Positions 57,406-60,571 of a stretch of 64,000 nucleotides of DNA are shown piece by piece. The DNA is from a virus (Duplodnaviria > Caudoviricetes). The notes beneath the pieces were generated by a model that saw only the letters and a program-made list of their open reading frames with translations, was not told where the DNA came from and ran no database searches. Every line of letters begins with the position of its first letter. Position 1 is the first letter of the stretch. The stretch spans positions 918-64,917 of IMG/VR virus record IMGVR_UViG_3300036802_000027. One strand, given 5' to 3'. The translations under genes were made by a program, and so were the position numbers.

Positions 57406-58074
57406 CTACAGATTATTCTCCATTGGGATAGACGGTTCTGGTAATCTTTCATAGATATCGCGAGGTATGTAATATTTACGCGCCAAAGCGTAAGGGATTG
57501 TATAATCTCCAAACATATTGTCTAACGCCTTATCGTAGTCTATTCCTTCTGTTTGTTCCCTCCTCCAAGAAATATATACGCCATCATTCTCGCCCCCACC
57601 AACGTTATCCATTTTAGTACTAATACTCACCTCATAAACTTCTGGATTTTCAAACAGTATTTTTGAGTATGCTAAAAGGGAACCGCCCGACTTCCTAACA
57701 AAATCTTTTACATCTCCAAACATCCCTGGATTGACAGTTATATCAATGTACTTTCCTTTATCGTCCTCACTATATACGAATTTCCTAAAAGTAGTATCTG
57801 TTAACATAATTGACACTGCCGCATGTCCCGTGTCTTTTAGTGCTTCTCTAACGTTTTTCTCGTTAACCTCAGCTTTACTCCAATCAAATACAGGAGCATC
57901 TTCTTCTTTTGTCTCTTTTAGTCTTACAACACTCTCGACTACCGGTACAGTTACCTCCTCCTTAGTTATCTCTGGTTGGTCCTTGTTTACACTGTTAGAC
58001 GTTATAGTAGCCGCTTCCCCGCATCCCGAAGCCAGAACTGCGATTAGTATTAGTACAAAGCCTAATTTCCGCAT
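57406..58074 (-). CDS. lipoprotein (moron)
   Basis: lipobox 'LASGC' after signal peptide; own terminator. Confidence 0.8.
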   Translation of the reverse strand: MRKLGFVLILIAVLASGCGEAATITSNSVNKDQPEITKEEVTVPVVESVVRLKETKEEDAPVFDWSKAEVNEKNVREALKDTGHAAVSIMLTDTTFRKFVYSEDDKGKYIDITVNPGMFGDVKDFVRKSGGSLLAYSKILFENPEVYEVSISTKMDNVGGGENDGVYISWRREQTEGIDYDKALDNMFGDYTIPYALARKYYIPRDIYERLPEPSIPMENNL

Positions 58075-58244
58075 ATATGCATCCCCTATCGTTTTCCCTA
58101 AATTTTATCACTCTACTATATTACGCGTCTAGACGAAGAAAAGCGCCCGCTGACGAATCCCCACGTTTTATATACGTAGAAACTCGCCAACGGGCGCAGT
58201 TTTATTTCCGAATATCGTCTTTTAAACCTCACATAACATAATAC

Positions 58245-58273
58245 TTGCGTATTATATAATACCGCGGTATACT
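58245..58273 (+). promoter_or_regulatory. strong sigma-A promoter with two 12-bp palindromes
   Basis: TTGCGT-17-TATACT; TATTATATAATA (58250-58261) and ATACCGCGGTAT (58259-58270) between and over the boxes. Confidence 0.8.
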
Positions 58274-58317: not shown

Positions 58318-58887
58318 ATGACAAACGTTATGAAAAGTGCTTGGGAAATCGCCTATGAAGGAGTTAAAAAATTCGGTGGGCAAGTTAAAGAGTACTTCGC
58401 AGATGCGTTGAGAATTGCTTGGTCCCTCTTCAAGAAAGGAGGAAAAGCATTGGAAACTAAAAAAGAAATTTTTGCAGCTAAAGTAAACCAGTACGTATCT
58501 GCCGCAAAGGGAATAAAGAAATACAAAAATGACACAAAGGAAGTTAATGCCGCTAATCTAATCGCGATGTTTAACGAAGAAAAAGCGGATGGATTAATAA
58601 AATTGATGAGCAAAAAAGCAGACGAGTTAGAATTGCGTGTGAAGCAACTACAAGCAACGGTCATTCGCACAAAACGCTTCGAAAAAATGTATCACCTCAT
58701 CACGCTTAAAAAAGATCAAAAAGTTGAAAGTCTAGTTAAAAAAGATGCAGAAGGATATCACGTAATATTCGGTTCTGGATTCTACCGCGTTATCGAAAAT
58801 GGAGTAGAGAAGTACATCCAAACAGTTCCAGGCAACACATCAATGAGAGAATTGGATAAAGAAACAGTTATTCGTTTCAAAAGATAA
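58318..58887 (+). CDS. hypothetical protein, candidate anti-defence protein
   Basis: GAGGAGG RBS; N-terminal 'VMKSAWEIAYEGVKKFGG..KEYFADALRIAW' helical module; AT-rich. Confidence 0.75.
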   Translation: MTNVMKSAWEIAYEGVKKFGGQVKEYFADALRIAWSLFKKGGKALETKKEIFAAKVNQYVSAAKGIKKYKNDTKEVNAANLIAMFNEEKADGLIKLMSKKADELELRVKQLQATVIRTKRFEKMYHLITLKKDQKVESLVKKDAEGYHVIFGSGFYRVIENGVEKYIQTVPGNTSMRELDKETVIRFKR

Positions 58888-58939
58888 TTAAACTTCCCGG
58901 GAGGGTTCGCCCTCCTATCATTTAAAGGATGTGAACAGT

Positions 58940-59470
58940 ATGAATAATGCCTTTGAACAAATGCGAGAAGGTGTGCAATGGGTACTGGACAATTGCACAT
59001 CCTATCAGGTTGCAAAAGATTTAAGGATCAACAACAGAACTATAAATCGTTATCAAAACGGAACAACCGAAACGTCAAAAATGGCGTTAGAAACCGCTGA
59101 GAAGTTGTATAGCTATTACTTAGAGGAGCTGAATAAGATGGATCGAGAAGAACTCTTTAGTAGGGCGTTAGCCGCCCTAAATAAAATAAGTGTAAGGCAT
59201 TTTGAAAAAGGAAAACCGAGTATAGAGGTAAAGTATATGAAGGACTTTAGCTTAAAGCCGATGACAATCTACGCTAGAGCGATCAAGGATGTCAGTCTTT
59301 ATGCCGATAAATTTGATGGTTATGATTTAACTTTGTGGGACCGCGCAACTAATTACATTGGATCTATGGACACTACTACTTTCAACGACGATCCACTAAG
59401 TCCTAAGTGTCTGATTTATTTCAGTAAAGAGATGACTTCTCTAAATACGTTTAAGGAGGATAACAAATGA
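58940..59470 (+). CDS. HTH (Aca-like) fused to Cas11c/Cas8c-C-terminus-like domain
   Basis: HTH 'SYQVAKDLRINNRTINRYQNG...LETAEKLY'; C-terminal 'LFSRALAALNK..SIEVKYMKDFSLKP'; internal GAGGAG-9nt-ATG at 59138. Confidence 0.6.
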   Translation: MNNAFEQMREGVQWVLDNCTSYQVAKDLRINNRTINRYQNGTTETSKMALETAEKLYSYYLEELNKMDREELFSRALAALNKISVRHFEKGKPSIEVKYMKDFSLKPMTIYARAIKDVSLYADKFDGYDLTLWDRATNYIGSMDTTTFNDDPLSPKCLIYFSKEMTSLNTFKEDNK

Positions 59471-59513
59471 ATAAAGGAACACCGTCAGCGTAAAGCTGAC
59501 GGTGTTCCTTTAT
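59471..59513. terminator. bidirectional terminator, perfect 19-bp inverted repeat
   Basis: ATAAAGGAACACCGTCAGC / GCTGACGGTGTTCCTTTAT with 5-nt loop. Confidence 0.9.
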
Positions 59514-59533
59514 CTATAAGAGACTTTAAGTTT

Positions 59534-59565
59534 ATTGTAATCCGCGCTGGAGCATGTCCAGCGAA
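59534..59565 (-). CRISPR. solitary type I-C-like CRISPR repeat unit (not an array)
   Basis: 32 nt TTCGCTGGACATGCTCCAGCGCGGATTACAAT: 2 nt + 7-bp CGC..GCG stem + 5-nt loop + 11-nt tail, same layout as I-C repeats (GTCGC...GCGTGGATTGAAAT). Confidence 0.6.
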
Positions 59566-59588
59566 TTGCGATACTAGCCAGCATAATT

Positions 59589-59617
59589 AATATACACTTT
59601 TAAGGTAAGATTGTAAA
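59589..59617 (-). promoter_or_regulatory. sigma-A promoter driving the repeat-containing small RNA
   Basis: TTTACA-17-TATATT; start expected near 59582. Confidence 0.7.
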
Positions 59618-59637: not shown

Positions 59638-59871
59638 TTATTTCTTCGCTCCAACCGCCGATTTCCCGACGTCATACAATTTACACGCGGCTAGTCCCGT
59701 TATAATCCCCGTCATGATTCCGTCGGCCACTGTCGTATGCGGAATATATAGTAGCCCTGCAGCGAGCCCGATTACCATTGATATTAGCGGAAGATACTTC
59801 GCGGGCACGTATAACTTGAAGAACTCACCTAACGCGATAATCACCGCAACCACTACGCCTATTTCGTACAT
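59638..59871 (-). CDS. holin
   Basis: 77 aa, three hydrophobic segments, 'GIITGLAACKLYD', after endolysin. Confidence 0.8.
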   Translation of the reverse strand: MYEIGVVVAVIIALGEFFKLYVPAKYLPLISMVIGLAAGLLYIPHTTVADGIMTGIITGLAACKLYDVGKSAVGAKK

Positions 59872-59872
59872 A

Positions 59873-60571
59873 TTACTTCGCCCCCGTTTCGATATTTACC
59901 GTTTTAGTCTTCGCGTCCCACGTTACTTTCGCGCCGAGTGCTTCCGCCACTGCTCGCGCCGGTGTATACGTAGTCCCTGCGTCCAGCACTCCGTCCGCTA
60001 TCTTTTTACCATTAACGACTATGCATACTTTTACGTCTTTGTTCACGTCATTGACCGCCTTCTCCGCGTTATTTAACTTTGCTTGGACGGACGCCTTAAA
60101 CGCGATCCATCCCGTCCATTTACCGCCGTCATACATTAGTCGCGGACATATTTTACCGGACCAGTCGAAGTGTCTGCGCAGTCTATCCACGCCCCATCCG
60201 CGTTCCTTCAGCATTGATGCAACGAGAGTGGCCGCGTTATCCAGCGTCTTTGCGTAATTCCCACTTTCGCAGATTTCAATGCCAATTGACGTACGGTTAC
60301 CTGATTTCGCGGAGCTACCGTCGCCAGCGTGCCACGCGTTCTCATTCAGCGGAATACATTCGACTGCTTCGCGTTCATCTACTGCGATGTGGAACGATGC
60401 CTGGCGTAAGTTAGTCGGATTAGTTAACCACGTGCGTTCGTTAGCCGCGGTAGAGCTCGGATTTCCCGTATTGTGTATCGTAATTGTAGTCGCGGTCATC
60501 GCGTTAGCAGATCGTCTATTGCACGCTGTATTTCGTGGAATATAATCTTTACGGTAATTCATTCGCGCCAC
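59873..60571 (-). CDS. endolysin, N-acetylmuramoyl-L-alanine amidase (Amidase_2) with C-terminal copper-amine-oxidase-N-like domain
   Basis: 'ITIHNTGN', 'ASFHIAVD', 'AWHAGDG', 'SIGIEICE', 'HFDWSGKICP'. Confidence 0.95.
   Translation of the reverse strand: MARMNYRKDYIPRNTACNRRSANAMTATTITIHNTGNPSSTAANERTWLTNPTNLRQASFHIAVDEREAVECIPLNENAWHAGDGSSAKSGNRTSIGIEICESGNYAKTLDNAATLVASMLKERGWGVDRLRRHFDWSGKICPRLMYDGGKWTGWIAFKASVQAKLNNAEKAVNDVNKDVKVCIVVNGKKIADGVLDAGTTYTPARAVAEALGAKVTWDAKTKTVNIETGAK

What the first reader, a model, noticed from the sequence alone, without database searches (positions are those of the whole stretch)
58940..59470. HTH-Cas11c-like fusion with an internal ribosome binding site at the domain boundary
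Seen: after the HTH, residues 'MDREELFSRALAALNKISVRHFEKGKPSIEVKYMKDFSLKPMTIYARAIKDVSLYADKF' begin at an in-frame ATG (59138) preceded by GAGGAG at 9 nt. From memory, the Cas8c C-terminal domain pattern is 'YLLGRLFAVLEK...TIxDRY...AS..P...F..L', which aligns in spacing and chemistry. Known: Cas11c is made from an internal start in cas8c and is required for Cascade activity. Inference: the phage makes both an Aca-like repressor fusion and a free Cas11 mimic that could poison Cascade.
Basis: partly seen in the sequence, partly recalled or inferred. Interest (0 to 1): 0.85.

Follow-up and report, generated by a model that had tools for sequence, protein, structure and literature searches.

The report
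Phage HTH fused to Cas11c copy
A soil phage carries a gene that joins an anti-CRISPR-type DNA-binding switch to a diverged copy of Cas11c, the small subunit of the type I-C CRISPR complex, so it is a well-supported but untested candidate for a decoy subunit that disables that defence.

Summary
ORF 58940-59470 (+) encodes 176 aa, and an in-frame ATG at 59138 (M67) follows GAGGAG by 9 nt.

- **N-terminal domain (residues 1-66):** it matches the AcrIIA15 N-terminal domain and Aca11 in sequence (E 4e-5) and in fold (Z 10).
- **C-terminal domain (residues 67-176):** it is a diverged Cas11c, the C-terminal domain of Cas8c. Profile-profile comparison with Bacillales Cas8c gives 92%, E 5.5e-7. The family profile hits Cas8c C-termini at up to E 1e-25. 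The AF2 model gives Z 9.5-9.7 to Cas8c/Cas11c chains, against 6.2 or less for unrelated chains.
- **Family:** about 37 solo proteins form their own clade (support 99/98). They stand alone or are fused to varied HTH domains. Members occur in IMG/VR phages and in Bacillus phage Mgbh1 (gp36), which type I-C spacers target.
- **Operon:** the operator pair and promoter are conserved across related loci in front of variable cargo.
- **Internal start:** the ribosome site plus start codon at the domain boundary recurs in 14 of 18 related loci, in both fused and split forms. It is weak in the window's closest DNA-available relative.

Anti-CRISPR activity, Cascade binding and the short product are all inferred. 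The closest precedent is AcrIB4 (type I-B). This scan earlier found a related solo Cas11c-like gene in another genome (e1-3939506).

The parts
58240..58273 (+). Promoter with two operator-like inverted repeats. IR1 is AATACTTGCGTATT (58240-58253) and IR2 is AATACCGCGGTATA (58258-58271), centres 18 bp apart. They overlap a -35-like TTGCGT (58245-58250) and a -10-like TATACT (58268-58273).
   Evidence: Sequence. The same IR1 (identical) and IR2 (AATACYGYGGTATW), at the same 18-bp spacing, lie upstream of the HTH operons in L001/L019, L007, L008 and L012, and in diverged form in L005. Promoter-like hexamers were scanned. The two-repeat layout resembles the AcrIIA15 promoter (PMC10901769).
58318..58887 (+). 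First gene of the operon, 189 aa. The N-terminal 68 aa match Pfam Phage_Gp111. Function is unknown; it is a candidate anti-defence cargo.
   Evidence: PF07410 at 2.5e-15; strong SD AGGAGG 8 nt before the ATG. The first gene differs between related loci, but gene 1 of L008 shares this N-terminal module. No PDB relative was found.
58940..59137 (+). N-terminal HTH domain (residues 1-66) of the fusion, of the AcrIIA15-NTD / Aca11 type. Presumed autorepressor.
   Evidence: PDB hmmsearch with profile A2: AcrIIA15 NTD 4.4e-5, Aca11 2.6e-4. VIA-align: Z 10.3 (rmsd 1.3 over 60) and Z 10.2. The domain is highly conserved in homologs whose C-terminal parts differ.
59123..59140 (+). Internal Shine-Dalgarno-like GAGGAG (59123-59128), a 9-nt spacer, and the in-frame ATG 59138-59140 (M67) at the domain boundary.
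   Evidence: The family-wide recurrence in fused and split forms is shown; the background rate is 5.5%.
59138..59470 (+). C-terminal domain (residues 67-176, 110 aa, plus stop): a diverged homolog of Cas11c, the C-terminal domain of Cas8c/Csd1.
   Evidence: Pfam Cas_Csd1 is the top hit but below threshold. Of 36 family members, 26 hit Cas_Csd1, the best at 3.8e-15. The family profile hits D. vulgaris Cas11c at 8e-4 and Bacillales Cas8c C-termini at 1e-14 to 1e-25, end to end. hhalign of A2 against Cas8c gives 92.3%, E 5.5e-7, residues 63-171 against 520-630. VIA-align gives Z 9.7, 9.5 and 9.3 to Cas8c/Cas11c, and Foldseek's top hit is 8dex_J.
59470..59514 (.). Strong hairpin (20 bp) with an A-run before it and a T-run after it. 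It probably acts as a bidirectional terminator that ends the operon and the convergent small RNA.
59534..59617 (-). Neighbouring element, a separate finding. It runs: a promoter (TTTACA-17-TATATT, 59617-59589); a solitary repeat-like unit at 59566-59534 (ATT, 7-bp stem CGCTGGA/TCCAGCG, 5-nt loop, tail CGGATTACAAT); about 20 nt; then the terminator.
   Evidence: The unit has the same 3+7+5+7+11 geometry as the type I-C repeats of Planococcaceae (GTC-TCTCTCT-GTATA-GAGAGAG-TGGATTGAAAT), and 8 of 11 tail bases match. A strict scan finds 1 site in the window, against 3 of 300 random windows holding one. The hairpin folds as predicted. L001, L017 and L018 carry an analogous unit.

Best explanation
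The gene is the last gene of a small, self-repressed anti-defence operon of a soil Bacillota phage. Its N-terminal HTH domain (AcrIIA15-NTD / Aca11 type) most likely binds as a dimer to the two conserved inverted repeats in the operon's promoter and limits transcription. Its C-terminal 110 residues are a diverged paralog of Cas11c, the small subunit of type I-C Cascade, which in real systems is translated from an internal start inside cas8c. I infer that this domain takes a Cas11c place in the Cas8c-Cas11c-Cas11c 'belly' of the host's Cascade and gives a complex that fails in R-loop formation or Cas3 recruitment. That makes it a Cas-derived anti-CRISPR against type I-C, as AcrIB4 is against type I-B. 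The domain may be made both as the 176-aa fusion and, from the internal SD and ATG at M67, as a free 110-aa protein equal in extent to the stand-alone family members. Shown here: the identity of both domains, the operon and operator architecture, the viral distribution, and the conservation of the internal start signal. Inferred: DNA binding, Cascade binding, inhibition, and use of the internal start. The stated confidence is for the anti-type I-C function. The domain identities alone I hold at about 0.95, and use of the internal start at about 0.5.
For: Domain identities rest. The C-terminal domain belongs to a family of about 37 small proteins that forms one group apart from genuine Cas8c C-termini (UFBoot/SH-aLRT 99/98). 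The family keeps only 12 of the 34 columns that are at least 90% conserved in Bacillales Cas8c C-termini, with systematic replacements, as expected of a neofunctionalised paralog. Family members stand alone, starting at the residue that aligns with M67, or carry different HTH domains at either end: HTH_17/HTH_59 at the C-terminus, AcrIIA15-like at the N-terminus. Repeated fusion to regulators is typical of Acr-Aca fusions. The stand-alone forms show that the domain has a role without an HTH. The phage has no Cas5, Cas7 or Cas8c of its own. Relatives lie in nine IMG/VR viral contigs. One lies in Bacillus phage Mgbh1 as gp36, at the same spot beside the lysis genes. That phage is matched by three perfect and six imperfect type I-C spacers of B. 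halodurans C-125 (PMC5135824). The family profile scores 45-82 bits on Bacillales-type Cas8c but 13 bits or less on 30 other Bacillota Cas8c. Type I-C is common in candidate host groups: 30 of 151 genomes and 83 of 301. A conserved operator pair and promoter precede variable first genes. An I-C repeat-like small RNA gene lies next to the operon. For precedent, AcrIB4 is a Cas8b C-terminal homolog that blocks type I-B and has been proposed to replace Cas11 (10.1101/2023.06.24.545427; 10.1101/2025.06.06.658234).
Against: There is no experimental or modelling evidence of binding or inhibition. The host is unknown: the source is a soil metagenome, and 502 I-C spacers from 16 Planococcaceae arrays give no match to the phage. 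The window's own domain is very diverged; it scores 13.7 bits against Pfam (cut-off 27) and 18-20 bits against single Cas8c sequences. The usable structure model is one of five (pLDDT 79.7; the others are about 52), and the domain modelled alone was poor (pLDDT 45). L004, which has the same C-terminal domain, lacks a good internal SD. Net charge differs only slightly from that of host Cas11c, so no obvious loss-of-function signature was identified.
Confidence: 0.6

Rival explanations
1. It is an anti-CRISPR, but only as the full-length fusion. The internal SD and ATG are an evolutionary scar of a former two-gene arrangement (an HTH gene followed by a translationally coupled downstream gene) and are not used.
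For: Split forms exist in which the HTH gene stops exactly at the boundary: an ATGA overlap in L010 and TAA-N2-ATG in L020. L009 (fused) and L010 (split) carry homologous downstream modules and differ by a frame change. L004 and L003 are fused and lack a good SD. AcrIIA15 works as a full-length dimer that binds DNA and Cas9 at once (PMC10901769).
Against: The SD and start persist in 14 of 18 loci across at least six unrelated downstream domains, with constant 7-9-nt spacing even where the linker length changes. A mere scar should decay. A second subfamily of HTH-Cas11c-like fusions (L120) has AAGGGGG-N5-GTG at its boundary.
Confidence: 0.3
2. It is a transcription factor only. The Cas11c-derived helical bundle has been recruited as a dimerisation or sensing domain of a phage repressor and does not inhibit Cascade.
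For: Every context includes an HTH or a promoter with operators. A follow-up in this scan read a bacterial solo Cas11c-like gene as a self-regulating DNA-binding protein (e1-3939506). Many residues invariant in Cas8c are replaced.
Against: Several family members are stand-alone proteins of 103-119 aa with no DNA-binding domain. The HTH partners are unrelated to one another and sit at either end, so the constant part is the Cas11c-like module rather than the regulator. The AcrIIA15-type N-terminal domain dimerises by itself (PMC10901769).
Confidence: 0.12
3. It is a hijacking device rather than an inhibitor. Together with the adjacent repeat-like RNA, the phage Cas11c paralog remodels host Cascade into a phage-directed complex, for example to silence or target competitors or host genes.
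For: A promoter, single I-C-like repeat, roughly 35-45-nt stretch and terminator lie convergent to the operon here and in L001/L017. In those two loci the stretch after the repeat differs while its flanks are conserved.
Against: Nine other viral loci with family members show no repeat-like hairpin, and neither does Mgbh1. The repeat tail has 3 of 11 mismatches to the host consensus. No target for the 'spacer' was sought or found. Known solitary repeats act as inhibitors (the RacrIC1-Cascade structures 9jhb and 9jhc appeared).
Confidence: 0.08
4. It is a decaying remnant of a captured cas8c 3' end with no present function.
For: It is highly diverged from Cas8c.
Against: The frame is intact. Four homologs at 59-64% identity conserve the whole domain. 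The wider family has its own conserved motifs and a well-supported clade. The operon has an intact promoter, ribosome sites and terminator.
Confidence: 0.04

Closest known systems
AcrIB4 of Listeria (Katz et al., 'Diverse viral cas genes antagonize CRISPR immunity', 10.1101/2023.06.24.545427; Cas11-replacement model in 10.1101/2025.06.06.658234)
   Same: It is a small protein of a mobile element, homologous to the C-terminal (Cas11-equivalent) part of the large Cascade subunit. It is encoded outside any cas locus and forms a clade apart from genuine Cas8. The proposed action is as a faulty subunit.
   Different: AcrIB4 derives from Cas8b (type I-B), is 38% identical to it and is experimentally validated. 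The window's domain derives from Cas8c (type I-C), is far more diverged (27% in a profile alignment), is fused to an HTH and is untested. I did not compare the sequence with AcrIB4 itself because no sequence was at hand.
Cas11c, the small subunit of type I-C Cascade (C-terminal domain of Cas8c/Csd1; PDB 7kha_K, 8dex_J, 8g9s_H; PMC7684278)
   Same: The fold and the sequence motifs are shared: R..LFGRLLA, ..KY....P and LxxYxxQ. The length is similar at about 110-125 aa. In both cases the domain follows an in-frame internal SD and start codon.
   Different: It is not in a cas operon. It keeps only 11 of the 34 residues conserved in Bacillales Cas8c C-termini. It starts 9 residues later than host Cas11c. 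It sits in its own clade.
AcrIIA13-AcrIIA15 of Staphylococcus (PMC7104187; PMC10901769)
   Same: A shared N-terminal HTH of the same fold and family is fused to variable C-terminal inhibitor domains. The promoter holds two inverted repeats and is bound by the N-terminal domain for autorepression.
   Different: Those C-terminal domains block Cas9 and are not Cas homologs. No internal start is described for them in the text I searched (one search found no occurrence of 'internal'). The operator sequence here belongs to its own family.
Aca11 (PDB 9lx2)
   Same: It is a stand-alone HTH of the same fold (Z 10.2; E 2.6e-4), like the stand-alone forms L002, L010 and L020 of this family.
   Different: Sequence identity is only about 19-23%. 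Whether both belong to one Aca family by the field's criteria was not tested.
Bacillus phage Mgbh1 gp36 (KU665491.1, AMQ66695.1; GenBank note 'cas_Csd_1 and HTH_17 domains')
   Same: It belongs to the same Cas11c-like family (110 bits to the family profile). It sits in the same place beside the lysis genes on the opposite strand. Its host group carries type I-C.
   Different: Its HTH is a different domain (HTH_17) and is at the C-terminus. The paper describing the phage does not discuss the gene.

Membership tests
Cas11c / Cas8c C-terminal domain (Pfam PF09709 C-terminal region) | Sequence homology to the C-terminal ~120 residues of Cas8c | tested here: met
   hhalign of A2 against the Cas8c profile: 92.3%, E 5.5e-7, residues 63-171 against 520-630. 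The family profile hits Bacillales Cas8c C-termini at 1e-14 to 1e-25, and 26 of 36 family members hit PF09709. The window protein alone is below Pfam's cut-off (13.7 against 27 bits).
Cas11c / Cas8c C-terminal domain (Pfam PF09709 C-terminal region) | Helical-bundle fold of the type I-C small subunit | tested here: met
   VIA-align Z 9.7 (rmsd 2.5 over 103), 9.5 and 9.3 to 8dej_I 496-608, 8g9s_H and 8g9u_H; the next unrelated match to this domain is Z 6.0. Foldseek's top hit is 8dex_J. Caveat: only one of the five AF2 models was confident.
Cas11c / Cas8c C-terminal domain (Pfam PF09709 C-terminal region) | Encoded inside cas8c of a type I-C cas operon | tested here: not met
   It is the second gene of a phage operon. 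The 64.9-kb phage record holds no Cas8c, Cas7 or Cas5. It is a separate clade from Cas8c C-termini. So it is a homolog of Cas11c, not a Cas11c.
Cas11c / Cas8c C-terminal domain (Pfam PF09709 C-terminal region) | Assembles into Cascade and supports interference | not testable with these tools
Cas-derived anti-CRISPRs of the AcrIB4 kind | Cas homolog on a mobile element, outside cas loci, in a clade of its own | tested here: met
Cas-derived anti-CRISPRs of the AcrIB4 kind | Inhibits the cognate CRISPR-Cas subtype | not testable with these tools
   It needs a targeting assay with a type I-C system.
AcrIIA13-15-type HTH-Acr fusions / Aca-like autorepressors | N-terminal HTH homologous to the AcrIIA15 N-terminal domain | tested here: met
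   E 4.4e-5 with profile A2; Z 10.3, rmsd 1.3 over 60 residues.
AcrIIA13-15-type HTH-Acr fusions / Aca-like autorepressors | Conserved HTH joined to interchangeable C-terminal domains | tested here: met
   Alignment A1 and the loci L001-L021 show at least six unrelated C-terminal families behind one N-terminal domain.
AcrIIA13-15-type HTH-Acr fusions / Aca-like autorepressors | Inverted repeats in the operon's own promoter | tested here: met
   IR1 and IR2 are present and conserved across six locus types. Binding itself was not tested.
AcrIIA13-15-type HTH-Acr fusions / Aca-like autorepressors | Represses its own promoter | not testable with these tools
   It needs an EMSA or a reporter assay.

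The most novel reading that the evidence does not exclude
The cassette is a two-part, self-tuning device against type I-C, not a plain inhibitor. One gene yields a DNA-tethered fusion and a free Cas11c decoy from a conserved internal start. Binding of Cascade by the fusion relieves repression of the operon, making it a Cascade sensor. The adjacent repeat-like RNA loads the remodelled complex and so reprograms host Cascade for the phage's benefit. A broader version is that the whole AcrIIA15-type HTH family uses internal initiation as a general way to make regulator-inhibitor pairs from one reading frame.
Probability: 0.1. Interest if true: 0.85.

Novelty: new variant of a known kind. Interest (0 to 1): 0.62.

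Why it matters
Type I-C is among the commonest CRISPR subtypes and is used for large-deletion genome editing. In the literature I could search, its known protein inhibitors are not Cas-derived. A Cas11c decoy would be a second, independent case, after AcrIB4, of a phage turning the internally translated small subunit into a weapon, and that would suggest a general route of anti-CRISPR evolution. The family (stand-alone forms, N-terminal HTH fusions, C-terminal HTH fusions) gives a ready set of candidates with a cultured example, Mgbh1 and its B. halodurans-like host. The conserved ribosome site at the regulator-inhibitor boundary, seen in both fused and split forms, raises a testable question: do Acr-Aca fusions make two proteins from one frame? 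The conserved operator and promoter can also be used as a search handle for new anti-defence cargo.

Tried and rejected
- **Structure of the domain alone:** the AF2 model built from a 2-sequence alignment was poor (pLDDT 45) and was not used.
- **PDB search with the 4-sequence profile A2:** it found no Cas chain. The 36-sequence family profile was needed.
- **GenBank phage searches:** tblastn of the window's C-terminal domain and megablast of 24 kb of the window found nothing.
- **Viral scan with A4:** it failed for lack of a conserved stretch. It was repeated with A6 and A7.
- **Rfam:** the search gave no CRISPR repeat family for the repeat-like unit, only sub-threshold noise.
- **Host assignment:** 502 spacers from 16 Planococcaceae type I-C arrays do not match the window. 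The only run holding the DNA is a soil metagenome that may be its source, and no RNA holder is listed.
- **Solo copies in Planococcaceae:** none were found in the 151 genomes searched, apart from genuine Cas8c and one probable fragment.
- **Repeat-like hairpins:** none were found beside the nine other viral family loci or Mgbh1.
- **RNA fold around the internal SD:** no signal (z -0.57).
- **Net charge:** the family averages -2 against +1.2 for host Cas11c, too small a shift to argue mechanism.
- **Operon gene 1:** it has no PDB relative.
- **L007-type C-terminal domain:** it has no PDB relative.
Full report
**What is in the sequence.** The window is nearly the whole of a 64.9-kb IMG/VR phage record with terminal repeats, and the DNA is held by a soil metagenome run. 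Two genes lie on the plus strand between a minus-strand lipoprotein gene (57406-58074) and the minus-strand holin and amidase genes (59638-60571). The first runs 58318-58887 (189 aa). The second runs 58940-59470 (176 aa). In front of the first gene are two 14-bp inverted repeats, AATACTTGCGTATT (58240-58253) and AATACCGCGGTATA (58258-58271), which overlap promoter-like hexamers. After the second gene comes a 20-bp hairpin flanked by A and T runs (59470-59514). The in-frame ATG at 59138 is residue M67. GAGGAG (59123-59128) precedes it by 9 nt.

**The N-terminal domain.** A single-sequence search of the PDB gives AcrIIA15 and Aca11 as the best matches. With a profile of the four full-length homologs (A2), the AcrIIA15 N-terminal domain scores E 4.4e-5 and Aca11 scores 2.6e-4. 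The AF2 model of the full protein has pLDDT 79.7 for the best of five models; the other four are about 52. It superposes on the AcrIIA15 N-terminal domain at Z 10.3 (rmsd 1.3 over 60 residues) and on Aca11 at Z 10.2. In AcrIIA15 this domain dimerises and represses its own promoter through two inverted repeats (PMC10901769).

**The C-terminal domain.** Pfam's best hit to the protein is Cas_Csd1 (Cas8c), profile positions 439-511 of 559. It is far below threshold, at 13.7 bits against a cut-off of 27. Several independent tests raise this to firm homology.
- An exhaustive profile search with the domain found 34 relatives. None has Cas8c length, and most are 103-190 aa.
- Of 36 family members, 26 hit Cas_Csd1, the best at 3.8e-15.
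- The family profile aligns end to end with D. vulgaris Cas11c (7kha_K) at E 8e-4.
- It also aligns with the last ~110 residues of 19 genuine Cas8c proteins of Planococcaceae at E 1e-14 to 1e-25.
- The window's own domain gives 18-20 bits against the same proteins.
- A profile-profile comparison of the window's 4-member subfamily with a 15-sequence Cas8c alignment gives 92.3% probability, E 5.5e-7, residues 63-171 against 520-630 of 643.
- The model's best Foldseek hit among 350,542 chains is the 117-residue chain J of type I-C Cascade entry 8dex.
- A Foldseek-independent search gives Z 9.7, 9.5 and 9.3 to Cas8c 496-608 and to Cas11c of two species, with the next unrelated match to this domain at Z 6.0.

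The AF2 weights predate these structures as far as I know, and no templates were used.

**It is a paralog, not a Cas11c.** The phage has no Cas8c, Cas7 or Cas5. In a maximum-likelihood tree of 37 solo proteins, 19 Planococcaceae Cas8c C-termini and 12 other Bacillota Cas8c C-termini, the solo proteins form one group with support 99/98. They do so in 99% of bootstrap trees (quick tree). The alignment has only 113 columns and the bootstrap had not fully settled. Of 34 columns that are at least 90% conserved in the Planococcaceae C-termini, the solo family keeps 12 and the window keeps 11. Replacements are systematic, for example E544 to S/G, R545 to E/D, N557 to I/V and P582 to Q/E. The family profile scores 45-82 bits on the Bacillales-type Cas8c but 13 bits or less on 30 other Bacillota Cas8c. 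The family is therefore nearest to the Bacillales branch of type I-C.

**Architectures and distribution.** Family members occur in three forms.
- Stand-alone proteins that begin at the residue aligned with M67.
- Fusions to a C-terminal HTH_17 or HTH_59 domain.
- Fusions to N-terminal AcrIIA15-like HTH domains of two subfamilies.

One stand-alone member is already labelled 'type I-C CRISPR-associated protein Cas8c/Csd1' by NCBI (WP_216483027.1, Virgibacillus proomii, 104 aa). Nine IMG/VR viral contigs carry members. A cultured phage, Bacillus phage Mgbh1, carries one as gp36, with the GenBank note 'cas_Csd_1 and HTH_17 domains'. It lies between the lysis genes and the integrase on the opposite strand, the same position as here. 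The Mgbh1 paper reports three perfect and six imperfect spacers against Mgbh1 in type I-C arrays of B. halodurans C-125. It does not discuss gp36 (PMC5135824). Type I-C is frequent in candidate host groups: 30 of 151 genomes of the family of a Sporosarcina MAG that carries a prophage with this HTH, and 83 of 301 genomes of the phylum.

**The operon is an acr-type cassette.** The HTH family has 20 protein homologs and 21 fetched loci. It shows a nearly invariant N-terminal domain followed by at least six unrelated C-terminal domains. Upstream of the operons in six locus types lies the same promoter block: IR1 identical, IR2 as AATACYGYGGTATW, and 18 bp between centres. The first gene varies. 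It is absent in L005, is 67 aa, 133 aa or 146 aa in other loci, and is 189 aa here. L008's first gene shares the Phage_Gp111-like N-terminal module with the window's. A conserved regulator and operator with changing cargo is the hallmark of anti-CRISPR loci.

**The internal ribosome site.** On its own the site is unremarkable, because 5.5% of internal in-frame ATGs in this phage have an equally good SD. Comparison changes that.
- In 14 of 18 non-duplicate loci, an SD of 5-8 nt (AAGGAG, AAGGAGG, AGGAGG) lies 7-9 nt before an ATG or GTG at the domain boundary. Its position shifts together with linker indels.
- Three loci have the HTH as a separate ~64-aa gene that ends there. L010 has an ATGA overlap, L020 has TAA-N2-ATG, and L002 is followed by a terminator.
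- L009 (fused) and L010 (split) carry homologous downstream modules.
- A second subfamily of HTH-Cas11c-like fusion (L120) has AAGGGGG-N5-GTG at its boundary.
- Genuine cas8c genes of Planococcaceae show the known Cas11c start as AAGGAGG followed by GTG or ATG, ten codons before the conserved RDYLFGR motif. This agrees with 10.1101/2020.04.18.045682 and PMC7684278. The phage's M67 lies one residue before the homologous arginine.

Against use of the site: L004, the only relative with the same C-terminal domain whose DNA I could read, keeps the ATG but has a poor SD, and L003 has neither. I put the odds that a free 110-aa product is made at about even.

**Mechanism.** In type I-C Cascade the Cas8c C-terminal domain and two Cas11c copies form the 'belly'. 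A positively charged channel on Cas11c is thought to hold the non-target strand (PMC7684278). AcrIB4 of Listeria is a homolog of the last 90 residues of Cas8b. It blocks target binding by type I-B Cascade without preventing assembly (10.1101/2023.06.24.545427), and it has been proposed to replace Cas11 (10.1101/2025.06.06.658234). By analogy I propose that the window's C-terminal domain occupies a Cas11c site and yields a defective complex, while the HTH keeps the operon in check. This is inference.

**Neighbouring RNA (a separate finding, partly checked).** On the minus strand, a promoter (TTTACA-17-TATATT) drives a transcript. It holds a unit with the exact geometry of Planococcaceae type I-C repeats: 3 nt, a 7-bp stem, a 5-nt loop and an 11-nt tail. 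The tail, CGGATTACAAT, matches TGGATTGAAAT at 8 of 11 positions. The shared terminator follows. A strict scan finds one such site in the window, against 3 of 300 random windows holding one. A permissive scan is not significant. L001, L017 and L018 carry the same HTH with a different C-terminal domain. They have an analogous convergent unit about 1 kb downstream, with tail TGGATTGTGAT, and the ~40 nt after the repeat differ between loci while the flanks are conserved. This supports type I-C as the target of these cassettes. Other loci of the Cas11c-like family lack such a unit.

**Novelty.** Cas-derived anti-CRISPRs and HTH-Acr fusions are both known. Some family members are already tagged with a Cas8c/Csd1 domain in databases. 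An earlier follow-up in this scan described a related solo Cas11c-like gene in Ktedonobacteria and noted phage relatives (e1-3939506). I found no paper in the searchable library that reports a Cas11c-derived inhibitor of type I-C. Nor did I find one describing an internal start in AcrIIA15-type fusions. The library is incomplete. Table S3 of Katz et al., which lists 358 orphan viral cas genes, was not read. I class this as a new variant of a known kind.

Noticed in passing
window 59534-59617 (-): A promoter plus a solitary type I-C repeat-like hairpin (ATT, CGCTGGA, CATGC, TCCAGCG, CGGATTACAAT) lies convergent to the operon and shares its terminator. The geometry is identical to Planococcaceae I-C repeats. 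A strict scan finds 1 in the window, against 3 of 300 random windows holding one.
   Followed up: partly
L001:5384-5684 (-), L017:5454-5754 (-), L018: These related HTH-fusion loci carry an analogous convergent unit: TTGACA-17-TATCCT promoter, short leader, TCGCCCG-ACGGT-CGCGGGCG hairpin, tail TGGATTGTGAT, about 40 nt that differ between L001 and L017, then a conserved terminator. The layout looks guide-like.
   Followed up: partly
window 58318-58887 (+): The first gene of the operon (189 aa) has a Phage_Gp111-like N-terminal module (PF07410, 2.5e-15). The first gene of L008's operon shares this module, while the C-terminal halves differ. No PDB relative was found. It is a candidate anti-defence protein of unknown target.
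   Followed up: partly
L001-L021 and window 58240-58273: The operator and promoter block ATAATACTTGCGTATTATATAATACYGYGGTAT is nearly identical across loci with different cargo genes. It could serve as a DNA search handle for new anti-defence genes.
   Followed up: partly
L007:1014-1505, L001, L008, L012, L015, L019: The commonest C-terminal domain behind this HTH (motif WESLDQAIEDFNSW...) has no PDB sequence relative. It co-occurs with an I-C repeat-like RNA in L001/L017, so it is another candidate inhibitor.
   Followed up: no
window 58900-58915 (+): A short G+C-rich hairpin (GGAGGG-TTCG-CCCTCC) lies between the two genes of the operon, without a clear T-run. It may be a processing, stability or attenuation element.
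   Followed up: no
window 57406-58074 (-): A 222-aa protein has a lipoprotein signal (lipobox LASGC) directly beside the operon. It gives a faint PHROG hit to Cor-like superinfection exclusion (E 0.13), so the region looks like an accessory 'moron' island.
   Followed up: no
L022-L043 (Planococcaceae cas8c genes): All 19 cas8c genes show a strong in-frame AAGGAGG followed by GTG or ATG ten codons before the RDYLFGR motif. The Cas11c internal start is therefore conserved in this bacterial family, mostly with GTG.
   Followed up: yes
G082:C63:4436-4843 (-) and G035:C32:51694-51972 (+): Two odd matches turned up in Planococcaceae genomes: a 165-aa open frame equal to a Cas8c C-terminus (a possible fragment or a solo copy), and a 658-aa frame with a weak match to the family profile. 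Neither was inspected.
   Followed up: no
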